20,233 bases of DNA from a virus: the UHGV virus genome UHGV-0876955, one strand, 5' to 3'. This document shows, in pieces, positions 1-19,305 of the stretch. Made by a program: the position numbers and the translations under genes. A model generated the notes under the pieces. That model was given only the letters and a program-made list of their open reading frames with translations. It was not told where the DNA came from and searched no databases. Each line of letters starts with the position of its first letter. The first letter of the stretch is position 1.

Positions 1-72
1 CCTATCCCCTGTGTGCCTTGAGAGACGCCGACCACTCCGTCTCTAAATTCAGAAAGTAACTCATTGGATTGA

Positions 73-2322
73 TACAGGCTTTCCACCGTTAACAAAGCTA
101 TTTCTGGTCGTTACGATGGCGGCTTCCCATGTGGTCGTATCGTCGAAGTATTCGGTCCTCCAAGTGCAGGGAAATGTGTTACCGCAGACACCATGCTGCT
201 GACGGAGCGTGGAATGGTAACAGTGAAAGAGTTGTTTGAGATTGAAGGGTACAAAGCGACATGCACTACTCGCGATGTAGAGCATAACGTTGGACTCATC
301 AATGAAAATGGCGTGATAGAGAAGACCTCACACCTGACATGGAACAACCGTCGCAAATTCAAGCGTATTAAGCTGGCATCAGGCGGTTATATCGAGGCTA
401 CGTTCCGTCACCCAATCCGTGTGGTTGACGACTTAGGTAATGTCGTCTGGCGACATGCTGAAAAAATCAGTGTAGGCGACACGATTCCTTCAATGGTTGG
501 CACACATCAATTCGGCGATCAGCACCTGGATGCCAATATCGCAAAACTGATGGGCTATTTAATTGCTGACGGATACGTCGCCTCTGAAAATTCAGTGAAT
601 TTTTCTAACACAGATCCTTTCATCAAGGATGAGTACTACCGCCTCATTTCGCTGGTATCAGACAAGATGCCAGTTACGAGAAAACATAACGGCTCGGAAG
701 ACCATGTGCTGTTTAGCAAAGAGGTGCGTTCGCTGCTTTTTAAAGAATATGGTCTGGAGTATGAGAAAGCTGCTGGCAAGCAGGTTCCGTTGAGTGTGCG
801 TCGCGCCAATAGCGAGGCTCAAATTGCATTCCTTCGCGGCTACTTTGAGCTGGAATGCCACGTCAATGATGGTCGCTGCATTGAGGTTGTGAGCGCGAGT
901 GGGCTGCTGCTACAGCAAATTCGCCTCATGCTCCTGAATCTGGGGATTACGTCAACTATCTCTGAAAAACACGTCGCGGGTTATGAAAATACATATTACC
1001 GGCTGTCATTCAGTGGCTCTAATTACGACCTTTTTCTGTCAACGATTGGTTTCGAATCTCCGGCACGTTTATCAGTGGCAACCAAACGGGACATTGGTTT
1101 TGACCGCACTTACTCAGGCTATGTTCCGCACATCAGCGGCTTAGTGAAATCACTCTACGAGTCGCTCACCAAGACCACCCGTGAAGACTACGCTCTGGTA
1201 GACCACGTTATTGGCCGCGGCGATCGTGTCGGAATAGACAAACTGCGAGAAATCTATGTCTCCTTCATTGGCAGAAAGAATCGTTTTAACGAGCATCTGT
1301 TTGCACAACTGGCAGCGGTAATTGGCTCTAACTTGTTCTACGACGAAGTCGTGGCTATTGAGGAAGGTGAAGCACCAACGTTCGACGTAGCGATGCCGGA
1401 AACACACTCTTTCTGGTCTAACGGGATTATCAGCCACAACACATTCCTTGCAACAGCAGCGATGATCTCCGCTCAAAAACAAGATGGTCTGGCGGTATTC
1501 CTCGATCATGAAAACAGTTTTGACGTTGGCCTGGCTGTAGCCAATGGCCTGAACGCAGATGAGGATGACGGTCAGTGGGTCTACAAACAGCCGGATACCT
1601 TCGAAGACTCCGTAGAGCTGATCGGCACAATCCTCAAGCTGGTGCGCGACGAAGAGCTTATTCCGGAAACAGCCCCTATCTGCATCGTAGCCGACTCTCT
1701 GGCGTCGATGGTTCCGAACTCGAAGGCTGAGAAGTTCGACAAGATGGCAGAAGGCACTGCGAAAGACAAAGATCAGCTGAACATGAACGACAACACGGCG
1801 CTGGCGCGCGCGACAAGTGCGAACTTCCCTACTCTGGCGCTTTGGGCGCGTAAGTACAACGCGTGCATCATCTTCTTGAACCAGGTGCGTACCAAAATTG
1901 GTGTGATGTTTGGCGATCCGACTACGTCTCCGGGTGGCGACTCTCCGAAGTTCTACGCGTCGGTGCGCATCCGTCTGGGTGCATCCGTCATGAAGGATGG
2001 CAAAGAGAAGATCGGCCAGGACGTAGGCGCAGAATGCATCAAAAACAAAGTTGCACCACCGTATGGCAAATGCACCTGGAAATTCTACTTCGATCCTACT
2101 CGTGGCCTCGACGTTATCGAATCGCTCGTCGAGTACATGCTGGAAGAAGGATACCTGCCAAAGAACGCCAGCGGGCGAGTTGAAATTGGTGACAAGAAAT
2201 ACACCAAATCGCAGATCGTCGAGATGTATCGGGAGAAGCCACTGGCTGAAATCATTGCGGCTTTGCAGGCAATCGACGACCGAAGAGCAAAAGACAACCC
2301 CACCGAGTCAGTAGAAGAGTAA
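73..2322 (+). CDS. recA: RecA-family recombinase precursor containing an intein; 5' end unresolved (frame opens at 73 after an in-frame TGA at 70-72, no start codon before the conserved core)
   Basis: Extein reads ...GGFPCGRIVEVFGPPSAGK | TFLATAAMISAQ...ICIVADSLASM...FLNQVRTKIGVMFGDPTTSPGGDSPKFYASVRIRLG..., matching RecA Walker A and the [25 protein letters not shown] core as I recall it from E. coli RecA. Stop TAA at 2320-2322. Confidence 0.8.
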   Translation, partial: YRLSTVNKAISGRYDGGFPCGRIVEVFGPPSAGKCVTADTMLLTERGMVTVKELFEIEGYKATCTTRDVEHNVGLINENGVIEKTSHLTWNNRRKFKRIKLASGGYIEATFRHPIRVVDDLGNVVWRHAEKISVGDTIPSMVGTHQFGDQHLDANIAKLMGYLIADGYVASENSVNFSNTDPFIKDEYYRLISLVSDKMPVTRKHNGSEDHVLFSKEVRSLLFKEYGLEYEKAAGKQVPLSVRRANSEAQIAFLRGYFELECHVNDGRCIEVVSASGLLLQQIRLMLLNLGITSTISEKHVAGYENTYYRLSFSGSNYDLFLSTIGFESPARLSVATKRDIGFDRTYSGYVPHISGLVKSLYESLTKTTREDYALVDHVIGRGDRVGIDKLREIYVSFIGRKNRFNEHLFAQLAAVIGSNLFYDEVVAIEEGEAPTFDVAMPETHSFWSNGIISHNTFLATAAMISAQKQDGLAVFLDHENSFDVGLAVANGLNADEDDGQWVYKQPDTFEDSVELIGTILKLVRDEELIPETAPICIVADSLASMVPNSKAEKFDKMAEGTAKDKDQLNMNDNTALARATSANFPTLALWARKYNACIIFLNQVRTKIGVMFGDPTTSPGGDSPKFYASVRIRLGASVMKDGKEKIGQDVGAECIKNKVAPPYGKCTWKFYFDPTRGLDVIESLVEYMLEEGYLPKNASGRVEIGDKKYTKSQIVEMYREKPLAEIIAALQAIDDRRAKDNPTESVEE
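175..1440 (+). mobile_element. Intein (422 codons) with LAGLIDADG homing-endonuclease domain, inserted between Lys and Thr of the RecA P-loop
   Basis: Begins with Cys (TGT 175-177) in CVTADTMLL (intein block A-like); two LAGLIDADG-type motifs LMGYLIADGY (547-576) and FLRGYFELECHVNDG (829-873); ends ...GIISHN (Asn AAC 1438-1440) followed by Thr +1, after which RecA sequence resumes in frame. Confidence 0.8.
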
Positions 2323-18228: not shown

Positions 18229-18343
18229 AAGAACAGTCGCCTTTCAATCATTTTCTGCCTGTATTTAATACTTTTCCGCCTGATAGGTTTAGTCAAAATG
18301 CAGCCATCGAAACGCAAATGTAACCAAACAGAAGGAGACTTAC

Positions 18344-19152
18344 ATGAGTTCGGTTGAAAATGTAATGACAAATGATGATCTGGACGAGCTGACAGCCATG
18401 TTGCAATCACTTGATGAACCAGTAAAAAAGCTGCACAGGTTGAAAATACTGATGATATTGACGATCTGCTGCTCGGCCTAGATGCTGGCGTAGCCATGAG
18501 TTCTGATGATGTTGCCGAAGAACTTTTCAATGAAGAAAAAGCAGGTGATTTCAGCTCTGCTTTAAATGAGTTGGAGTTAGCGCATGAGCCTATAAACGTA
18601 ATTAACGCTGAAAGTGTTGAAGCTGCCGAAAACGAGCCAGAACAATTGGGATTTATTGAGGTTGAAGAGTGTGTTGAGGTTAATGATGAATTAAAAGTTC
18701 AACAGTCAAATGATAGCAATACAAATAAAAAAGCTCGTACTGCAAGAGGTCCTCGTTTTACTTTAAGTGATAAAGATGATTCGTTTTTCAATAAAGCGGG
18801 CTTAGAAAAAGATATTTTCTTAGACGCTTACGATAACGCGCCTGTCAAAGCAAAGGATAAGATATTAAACCTTCTTAATTGGTTTAGCGGAGGTCCAGAT
18901 ATTAGTGTTTACACGGTAATTTCCATGAGACACCTTCTCACAGAAAAGAAGGCTACAAGTAATAGTATTAAGATTGCTTTAATGAGCAATCCAGAAAAAC
19001 CGTATCCGCTTAACACTGCGTCAACTCAGGCTGGGCAAATGATGGCTGTATTTCCAGCGACAGGAATTGCCGTTAGAGACGGTGGAAATCTAACATTGAA
19101 CGAAGAATCACCGATCGTTAAGAAGTTTGTCGCGGAGTACACTATTGGATGA
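18344..19152 (+). CDS. Acidic hypothetical protein, apparently needing a -1 frame change at A_AAA_AAG (18424-18430) to join 18344-18481 with 18496-19152
   Basis: Strong SD aaggaga before ATG 18344; zero frame stops at 18479-18481 after 45 codons; the -1 frame is open from 18418 and continues into the 218-aa ORF; the ATG at 18496 has no SD. Confidence 0.45.
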
Positions 19153-19229
19153 CGTTCCCCTACTTAAAATAAAGCCCATAGAGAGCTTTATAGTACTGGG
19201 TAAGCCAATCACATACCCAGCACCACAAA

Positions 19230-19276
19230 AACGCGCCAGAGAGCTTCTCGTTTGCATTTCTGGCGCGTTTTATTTG
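19230..19276 (+). terminator. Rho-independent terminator
   Basis: AACGCGCCAGA / TCTGGCGCGTT 11-bp stem with 18-nt loop, followed by ttatttg. Confidence 0.55.
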
Positions 19277-19305
19277 ATTGCCAGACATAAAATCAAATGC
19301 AAAAA

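What the first reader, a model, noticed from the sequence alone, without database searches (positions are those of the whole stretch)
18344..19152. dnaX-type slippery heptamer A_AAA_AAG exactly at the junction of two ORFs of an acidic protein
The ORF starting at ATG 18344 (SD aaggaga) stops after 45 codons at 18479-18481. Its zero-frame codons GTA-AAA-AAG at 18422-18430 form the A_AAA_AAG heptamer, and the -1 frame is open from there through the 218-aa ORF ending at 19152 (...DEPVKK then KAAQVENTDDIDDLLLGLDAG...). The downstream ATG at 18496 has no Shine-Dalgarno. Either this is a programmed -1 frameshift giving a short and a long product, or a homopolymer sequencing error in one gene.
Basis: seen in the sequence. 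Interest (0 to 1): 0.5.

Follow-up and report, generated by a model that had tools for sequence, protein, structure and literature searches.

The report
One-base deletion splitting a phage-plasmid gene
The "slippery" A_AAA_AAG site between two reading frames comes from a one-base-shorter A-run (A6 instead of A7) in a gene that is a single 269-codon ORF in every close relative, so it is an ordinary frameshift mutation or homopolymer miscall, not a programmed frameshift.

Summary
ATG 18344 opens a 45-codon ORF, GTA-AAA-AAG lies at 18422-18430, and the -1 frame runs on to 19152.

The window is part of an SSU5/pHCM2-like E. coli phage-plasmid.
- All 42 related loci fetched by DNA search carry A7 here, giving one uninterrupted 810-nt ORF (269 aa, WP_000099880.1, phrog_5235).
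- No exact A6 match exists in 197 complete-genome E. coli records or 171 PLSDB plasmids.
- Homologues at 54-60% identity (Enterobacter, Salmonella pHCM2, Klebsiella, Cronobacter) are single ORFs with no A-run at this site.
- There is no dnaX-like stimulator: the downstream fold has z = -0.85, there is no internal Shine-Dalgarno, and there is no Rfam match.

The heptamer exists only because A7 lost one A. A6 alleles (about 38 contigs) and A8 alleles (about 9) recur rarely in public assemblies, against at least 1000 contigs with the intact protein.

The window also has private frameshifts in thyA and a recA-intein gene, plus a rearranged sbcCD-like region. It is therefore either a decaying copy or an imperfect assembly.

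One small point: a -1 slip at this heptamer would rebuild the wild-type protein exactly, so the allele may be slightly leaky.

The parts
18332..18338 (+). Shine-Dalgarno AAGGAGA, 5 nt upstream of the gene's true start codon ATG 18344
   Evidence: Read directly from the sequence. The same start is annotated in relatives.
18344..19152 (+). The whole gene. It is the orthologue of the 269-aa hypothetical protein WP_000099880.1 (phrog_5235), disrupted here by a 1-base deletion.
   Evidence: Relatives annotate one 810-nt CDS. tblastn places aa 1-34 in frame 2 and aa 28-269 in frame 1 of the window, the latter 100% identical. PHROG hit E = 7.5e-150.
18344..18481 (+). The 45-codon ORF. Codons 1-29 are authentic; codons 30-45 (LHRLKILMILTICCSA) are an out-of-frame tail ending at TAG.
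   Evidence: the N-terminal 45 residues of homologues run continuously across the site.
18424..18430 (+). A6 tract (18424-18429) plus G, forming the heptamer A_AAA_AAG. Relatives have A7 here, read as GTA AAA AAA GCT.
   Evidence: Alignment A1. All 42 loci fetched by DNA search have A7. All 23 IMG/VR matches and all 12 metagenome matches have a 7-base gap. No exact A6 match in 197 plus 171 records.
18430..19152 (+). Remainder of the gene (aa 30-269 plus stop), lying in the -1 frame relative to ATG 18344
   Evidence: Joining 18344-18430 to 18430-19152 gives a protein identical at 269 of 269 residues to WP_000099880.1.
18496..19152 (+). The 218-codon ORF as a gene caller sees it. Its ATG is the internal Met51 of the intact protein and has no Shine-Dalgarno. 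It lies 15 nt after the TAG of the short ORF, so re-initiation is conceivable but untested.
   Evidence: This product is called in other frameshifted assemblies.
18760..19149 (+). C-terminal domain (about aa 140-269) with a winged-helix-like fold, probably DNA-binding
19228..19278 (+). GC-rich hairpin (19228-19271) followed by a U-rich tail, a probable intrinsic terminator of the gene
   Evidence: RNA fold of -26.2 kcal/mol, z = -5.54, 0 of 200 shuffles as good.

Best explanation
The two ORFs are one gene broken by loss of a single A from an A7 tract. The gene encodes a 269-aa acidic protein conserved in SSU5/pHCM2-like phage-plasmids of Enterobacteriaceae. It has conserved N-terminal helices, a disordered acidic linker and a C-terminal winged-helix-like domain. 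It sits between a DnaQ-like 3'-5' exonuclease gene and a phage Dam methylase gene.

In the intact gene the site reads GTA AAA AAA GCT (V K K A). With one A missing it reads GTA AAA AAG CTG. This shifts the frame and by accident creates the heptamer A_AAA_AAG. The site is therefore a by-product of a homopolymer indel, not an evolved recoding signal.

The indel is either a real slipped-strand frameshift mutation in this plasmid copy or a homopolymer miscall in the assembly.

Inferred, not shown: if the deletion is real, most ribosomes make the 45-aa peptide. A small fraction could slip -1 on the heptamer, or RNA polymerase could add an A, and either event would regenerate exactly the wild-type protein.
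For: - Close relatives have A7 and a single annotated 810-nt CDS.
- A7 is present in 42 of 42 loci fetched by DNA search, in all 23 IMG/VR hits and in all 12 metagenome hits.
- No exact match to the A6 version exists among 197 complete-genome E. coli records or 171 PLSDB plasmids.
- Joining the two frames at the heptamer reproduces WP_000099880.1 at 269 of 269 residues. The part after the site is 242 of 242 identical to a relative's protein, so there is no compensating change and no decay.
- 55 homologues were found. Those aligned are single proteins of about 232-295 aa whose conserved N-terminal block (DDLDELTAMLQSLDEPV.KAA...IDDLL.GLD) spans the site.
- At DNA level the distant homologues read GTG CAG AAA GCT, GAA AAA CTG GCT or GTG GCA AAA GCG, so they have no A-run and no heptamer.
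- There is no stimulator. The downstream 70 nt fold at z = -0.85, I see no SD-like sequence in CAATCACTTGATGAACCAGT upstream, and there is no Rfam frameshift element.
- Both A6 and A8 alleles turn up rarely in public assemblies, about 38 and about 9 contigs against at least 1000 for the exact intact protein. That is the symmetric pattern expected of homopolymer slippage or error.
- A control A7 tract in the neighbouring dam gene also has a rare A6 variant, on 2 contigs.
- The window carries other private lesions: an extra C in thyA at 15093 (absent from 22 of 22 loci), a frameshift in the recA-intein gene near 91, and a unique rearrangement of the sbcCD-like genes.
Against: - The heptamer is the most shift-prone one known in E. 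coli and sits in the correct zero-frame phase, so some -1 shifting probably does occur.
- A weak 7-bp hairpin starts 5 nt after the heptamer.
- A6 alleles occur in several sequence backgrounds, some in otherwise clean assemblies. The allele can therefore persist and is not necessarily a pure artefact.
- Real mutation and sequencing error cannot be separated without reads.
Confidence: 0.93

Rival explanations
1. Programmed dnaX-type -1 ribosomal frameshifting. The gene is designed to give a 45-aa zero-frame product and a 269-aa trans-frame product in a set ratio.
For: A_AAA_AAG is in the correct phase and the -1 frame is open to 19152. A weak hairpin starts 5 nt downstream. The downstream ATG has no Shine-Dalgarno.
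Against: - The layout is absent from every relative obtained by DNA search: A7 and one ORF in 42 of 42 loci, with no exact A6 in 368 complete-genome and plasmid records.
- The motif is absent in homologues at 54-60% identity.
- The downstream fold is no better than shuffles (z = -0.85). There is no internal SD and no Rfam match.
- The 16-residue zero-frame tail matches nothing conserved.
- Without stimulators, heptamers gave only 2.1-10 times a 0.055% background in E. coli (PMC4066793).
Confidence: 0.02
2. Phase-variable contingency tract. The poly-A run switches the gene ON (A7) and OFF (A6 or A8) by slipped-strand mispairing, and this is selected as a population-level switch.
For: - The tract lies in the 5' part of the gene.
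- Both A6 and A8 alleles exist in several sequence backgrounds: 8 distinct A6 products on about 38 contigs and three A8 products on about 9.
- They look somewhat commoner than indels at the A7 tract in dam, which has 2 contigs.
Against: - Variant alleles are at most a few per cent of occurrences. None was found in 197 complete-genome records, and the exact intact protein is on at least 1000 contigs.
- Seven bases is short for a high-frequency switch (my own knowledge).
- The tract is not conserved in homologues from other genera.
- About half of the A6 contigs are noisy assemblies with many other indels.
- The comparison with dam is biased, because an exact match over 45 aa is easier to find than one over 203 aa.
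Confidence: 0.04

Closest known systems
E. coli dnaX -1 programmed ribosomal frameshift site (tau/gamma)
   Same: The identical heptamer A_AAA_AAG in the same zero-frame phase (A AAA AAG), decoded by the same tRNA-Lys. The -1 frame is open.
   Different: - dnaX has an internal Shine-Dalgarno upstream and a strong stem-loop downstream, and it is conserved (my own knowledge; described in PMC5389563 and PMC6771820, listed). Here there is neither stimulator nor conservation.
- In dnaX the shifted frame ends quickly, giving the shorter product. Here the shifted frame carries 240 further codons of the real protein.
Compensatory ('corrective') frameshifting on indel alleles, e.g. the herpes simplex thymidine kinase G7 +/-1 'savior' indels and the pDEST17 C_AAA_AAA site
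   Same: A +/-1 indel in a homopolymer inactivates a gene, while low-level slippage on the same run restores some full-length product (PMC5009743; PMC1851650). Here a -1 slip would restore the exact wild-type sequence.
   Different: No evidence here that the leak occurs, matters or is selected. It is inference from the sequence only.
Homopolymer-tract phase variation (contingency loci)
   Same: A poly-A tract early in a coding region, with rare A6 and A8 length variants among isolates.
   Different: The tract has only 7 bases. Variants are rare and absent from 197 complete-genome records. The tract is not conserved beyond the E. coli lineage.
phrog_5235 / WP_000099880.1 family of SSU5/pHCM2-like phage-plasmids, with a C-terminal winged-helix fold like ArsR/MarR/PadR regulators
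   Different: - No Pfam family, and the function is unannotated everywhere.
- The long acidic N-terminal half has no counterpart in those regulators.
- DNA binding is untested.

Membership tests
dnaX-type programmed -1 ribosomal frameshift signal | Slippery heptamer X_XXY_YYZ in the zero-frame phase, with an open -1 frame downstream | tested here: met
   GTA AAA AAG lies at 18422-18430 in the frame of ATG 18344. The -1 frame is open from 18418 to 19152.
dnaX-type programmed -1 ribosomal frameshift signal | Stimulatory elements: an internal SD-like sequence about 10 nt upstream and/or a stable stem-loop or pseudoknot 5-8 nt downstream | tested here: not met
   I see no SD-like sequence in the 20 nt upstream. 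The downstream 70 nt fold at -17.4 kcal/mol against -15.2 for shuffles (z = -0.85, 35 of 200 shuffles as good). No Rfam frameshift element was found.
dnaX-type programmed -1 ribosomal frameshift signal | Conservation of the heptamer and of the two-frame layout in homologues | tested here: not met
   A7 and a single ORF in 42 of 42 loci fetched by DNA search. No A-run in Enterobacter, Salmonella, Klebsiella or Cronobacter homologues. Aligned protein homologues are continuous across the site.
dnaX-type programmed -1 ribosomal frameshift signal | Measured frameshifting that gives two products at a set ratio | not testable with these tools
   Needs a reporter assay, western blot or mass spectrometry.
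Homopolymer indel in a single gene (frameshift mutation or sequencing miscall) | Close relatives have one uninterrupted ORF, and the run length differs by one base | tested here: met
   A6 in the window against A7 in relatives, which have an 810-nt CDS.
Homopolymer indel in a single gene (frameshift mutation or sequencing miscall) | Both ORF pieces align collinearly to one protein, with no second compensating change | tested here: met
   tblastn places aa 1-34 and aa 28-269 in adjacent frames. The joined product equals WP_000099880.1 at 269 of 269 residues.
Homopolymer indel in a single gene (frameshift mutation or sequencing miscall) | Read-level evidence telling a real deletion from a consensus error | not testable with these tools
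   No reads are available. The window's own contig was not found in any collection.
Phase-variable contingency locus | Tract-length polymorphism among isolates at appreciable frequency | tested here: inconclusive
   A6 products are on about 38 contigs and A8 products on about 9, against at least 1000 for the exact intact protein. None was found in 197 complete-genome records. Part of the A6 set comes from noisy assemblies.
Phase-variable contingency locus | Tract retained across diverged homologues | tested here: not met
   Homologues at 54-68% identity have VQKA, VAKA, EKLA and similar at the site, with no A-run.
Winged-helix DNA-binding proteins (fold level, C-terminal domain only) | A helix-turn-helix core followed by a beta-hairpin wing, with structural similarity to solved members | tested here: met
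   [not shown]

The most novel reading that the evidence does not exclude
The A6 allele is a real, tolerated 'pseudo-pseudogene'. Loss of one A from the A7 tract happens to create the most shift-prone E. coli heptamer. Low-level -1 slippage, or RNA polymerase stuttering, would then rebuild the exact wild-type winged-helix protein. The tract would behave as a dimmer switch (A7 full, A6 leaky, A8 off) for a phage-plasmid replication-module protein. This would explain why A6 alleles are seen about four times as often as A8 alleles.
Probability: 0.06. Interest if true: 0.35.

Novelty: not a real feature. Interest (0 to 1): 0.08.

Why it matters
It matters mainly as a negative result. A textbook-perfect slippery heptamer at an ORF junction can arise trivially when an A7 tract followed by G loses one base, so conservation in homologues must be checked before recoding is claimed. 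For annotation, 18344-19152 should be treated as one disrupted gene (or corrected to A7), not as two genes. The other private frameshifts and the rearrangement in the same window warn that this sequence is either a decaying plasmid copy or an imperfect assembly.

Tried and rejected
- Pfam gave only sub-threshold hits. PHROGs gave only a family of unknown function.
- Rfam at a permissive threshold gave no frameshift element, only chance hits with E of 0.16 or worse.
- The pattern scan of GTDB representative genomes found nothing.
- I tried to locate the window's own contig through its private products: the 205-aa thyA fragment and the 312-aa ORF across the sbcC junction. Neither is on record. 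None of the A6-bearing contigs is the window; the best is 99.66% identical.
- Foldseek against viral models gave only uncharacterised proteins.
- The simple terminator scan missed the hairpin after the gene; a direct fold found it.
- As a control for hot-spot strength I used the dam A7 tract. The comparison is biased by product length, so I draw no rate conclusion from it.
- I considered a second-site compensating indel and rejected it, because the downstream part stays in the -1 frame to the stop at 100% identity.
- I considered whether the wild-type A7 site (A_AAA_AAA) is itself programmed. I rejected this because the tract is absent from other genera.

Full report
**Observation.**
- AAGGAGA at 18332-18338 precedes ATG 18344.
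- That ORF runs 45 codons to TAG at 18479-18481.
- Its codons 27-29 are GTA AAA AAG (18422-18430), so A_AAA_AAG lies at 18424-18430 in the phase needed for tandem -1 slippage.
- The -1 frame has a TGA at 18415-18417 and is then open to TGA at 19150-19152.
- ATG 18496 has no Shine-Dalgarno.
- The protein is acidic (pI 4.27).
- The only slip is that the trans-frame junction would read DEPVKK-AAQ, not DEPVKK-KAAQ.
- The heptamer alone is not unusual: 8 copies in the window against 5.7 expected.

**What the window is.** The 1.1 kb around the finding matches about 180 plasmids of E. coli and Shigella of roughly 110 kb (non-mobilizable, rep_cluster_488) at 95-99.9% identity. It also matches Escherichia phages Cyrano, PhiR41_1 and CMS-2020a. 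These are SSU5/pHCM2-like phage-plasmids. The wider 20 kb also matches Klebsiella, Enterobacter, Salmonella, Yersinia and Citrobacter plasmids more distantly. In every annotated relative examined, one 810-nt CDS occupies the place of the two ORFs. It encodes a 269-aa hypothetical protein (WP_000099880.1). It lies between a 3'-5' exonuclease gene (DnaQ-like) and a phage N-6-adenine methyltransferase gene.

**The A-run.** Aligning the window with four relatives shows a single difference that matters: the window has A6 where they have A7.
- All 42 loci fetched by DNA search carry AAAAAAA between the same flanks.
- A variable-gap pattern scan found 23 IMG/VR contigs and 12 metagenome contigs, all with a 7-base gap, and nothing in GTDB representative genomes.
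- A 72-nt query carrying A6 had no match at 99% or better in 197 complete-genome E. coli records or 171 PLSDB plasmids. The best hits all span 73 bases.
- With A7 the site reads GTA AAA AAA GCT. With one A fewer it reads GTA AAA AAG CTG. The slippery heptamer is therefore created by the deletion itself.
- Joining 18344-18430 to 18430-19152 gives a protein identical at 269 of 269 residues to WP_000099880.1.
- The part after the site is 242 of 242 identical to a relative's protein. There is therefore no compensating change and no sign of long-term decay.

**Distant homologues.**
- A protein search returned 55 homologues.
- The 17 I aligned with the query (16 of them full-length, 232-295 aa) have a conserved N-terminal block that runs straight across the site.
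- The KK dipeptide is not conserved; other lineages have VQKA, VAKA, TAQA, VTKA or EKLA.
- At DNA level, Enterobacter pEh17_2 and Salmonella Typhi pHCM2 read GTG CAG AAA GCT. Klebsiella reads GAA AAA CTG GCT. Cronobacter reads GTG GCA AAA GCG.
- Neither the heptamer nor the A-run nor the two-frame layout is conserved.

**Stimulators.**
- The 70 nt after the heptamer fold no better than shuffled sequence: -17.4 against -15.2 kcal/mol, z = -0.85.
- The only local feature is a weak 7-bp stem with two G-U pairs.
- I see no SD-like sequence in the 20 nt upstream.
- A permissive Rfam scan gave only chance hits.
- Sharma et al. 2014 report that in E. coli, heptamers without a stimulator give only 2.1-10 times a background of about 0.055% (PMC4066793).
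- Higher values have been seen for C_AAA_AAA under strong over-expression (PMC1851650).

**Is A6 ever seen elsewhere?** Yes, but rarely.
- The exact 45-aa product is called on 14-15 contigs. These include an NCBI draft (GCA_029456145.1, a 110,949-bp contig) and several Logan assemblies.
- Its 90% cluster holds 8 distinct A6 products on about 38 contigs, in several SNP backgrounds.
- A8 alleles, giving a 33-aa product ending ...KKSCTG or ...KKSRTG, occur on about 9 contigs.
- One assembly (GCA_000529975.1) keeps A7 but lacks a C at nt 152 of the gene.
- The exact intact protein is on at least 1000 contigs, which is the counting cap, and its cluster has 1246 member sequences.
- About half of the A6 contigs are noisy, with 3-18 gap openings in 2-3 kb relative to the window. 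The others are clean.
- A control A7 tract in the neighbouring dam gene has its A6 product on 2 contigs and its A8 product on none. This comparison is biased, because an exact match is required over 203 aa rather than 45.
- The picture is of ordinary, low-frequency +/-1 length changes at a homopolymer, by mutation or by miscall. It is not a fixed recoding arrangement.

**The rest of the window.** Compared with three relatives, the window has other private lesions.
- An extra C at 15093 splits the thymidylate synthase gene right after its PCH motif. None of 22 loci covering the site has it, and the resulting 205-aa product is not on record anywhere.
- The recA/LAGLIDADG-intein gene shifts frame near position 91 (A2 against A3).
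- The sbcCD-like region is rearranged. The Mre11-like gene is missing. Only SbcC-like residues 104-337 remain, inverted, at 7950-8651. The next gene is truncated.
- None of 243 complete-genome E. coli records has that arrangement in one piece.
- All other proteins in the window are 92-100% identical to relatives.
- Three frameshifts and one rearrangement in 20 kb of otherwise well-conserved genes mean one of two things: a recently degenerating plasmid copy or an imperfect assembly. I cannot tell which, and the window's own contig is in none of the collections searched.

**What the gene encodes.**
- There is no Pfam family. It matches phrog_5235 end to end, and that family has unknown function.
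- An AlphaFold2 model from 36 homologues gives N-terminal helices at moderate confidence, a disordered acidic linker (residues 85-133, pLDDT below 50), and a confident C-terminal domain (about 140-269, pLDDT above 90).
- I infer a DNA-binding protein of the replication and nucleotide-metabolism module. This is a fold-level inference only.
- A strong hairpin with a U tail at 19228-19278 probably terminates the gene.

**Mechanism and verdict.** Shown:
- The two ORFs are one gene.
- The window's A-run is one base shorter than in all close relatives.
- The heptamer is a by-product of that loss.
- No stimulator is present and the layout is not conserved.

Inferred:
- If the deletion is real, translation mostly ends at TAG 18479.
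- A small fraction of ribosomes slipping -1 on A_AAA_AAG, or RNA polymerase adding an A, would regenerate the exact wild-type protein.
- Re-initiation at ATG 18496, 15 nt after the stop, could give a 218-aa protein that keeps the winged-helix domain.
- This resembles the 'compensatory frameshifting on an indel' class described by Atkins et al. (PMC5009743). Nothing here shows that it is selected.

Confidence by reading:

| Reading | Confidence |
|---|---|
| Non-programmed indel | about 0.93 |
| Programmed dnaX-type frameshifting | about 0.02 |
| Selected phase-variable tract | about 0.04 |

Interest is low. The useful outcome is the correct annotation and the caution that a perfect heptamer at an ORF junction can be an accident of A7 becoming A6.

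Noticed in passing
window 14502-15606 (site at 15093): The thymidylate synthase gene is split by an extra C (GCCAC-TTT becomes GCCACCTTT) immediately after the PCH active-site motif. None of 22 related loci has it, and the 205-aa product is not on record in public assemblies.
   Followed up: yes
window 45-2319 (site near 91): The recA/LAGLIDADG-intein gene, which is cut by the left end of the window, changes frame near position 91 (A2 against A3 in two relatives). Only two loci were available for comparison.
   Followed up: partly
window 7950-9167: The sbcCD-like region is rearranged. The Mre11-like metallophosphoesterase gene is absent. Only SbcC-like residues 104-337 remain, in inverted orientation (7950-8651). 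The following gene starts at residue 73 (8643-9167). None of 243 complete-genome E. coli records has this junction in one piece. It is either a private structural variant or a misassembly.
   Followed up: partly
[not shown]
   Followed up: partly
L060, L061, L063 (A8) and L059 (GCA_000529975.1): Other public assemblies carry different frameshifts in the same gene. Some have A8 at the same tract (33-aa product ending ...KKSCTG). One keeps A7 but has a C deleted at nt 152 of the gene.
   Followed up: partly
window 19228-19278: A strong GC-rich hairpin with a U-rich tail lies just after the gene (-26.2 kcal/mol, z = -5.5). It is a probable intrinsic terminator that the simple scan missed.
   Followed up: yes
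window 4014 and 7947-7952: The same short upstream motif, CCACAAA(A)GG-AAAACACATG, occurs before two different genes. In both places the window has A4 where relatives have A5. It may be a repeated promoter or RBS element with a length-variable A-run.
   Followed up: no
window 14351-14503: The intergenic region upstream of thyA is locally divergent, with several single-base indels relative to relatives. The thyA start codon is ATG here but GTG in relatives.
   Followed up: no
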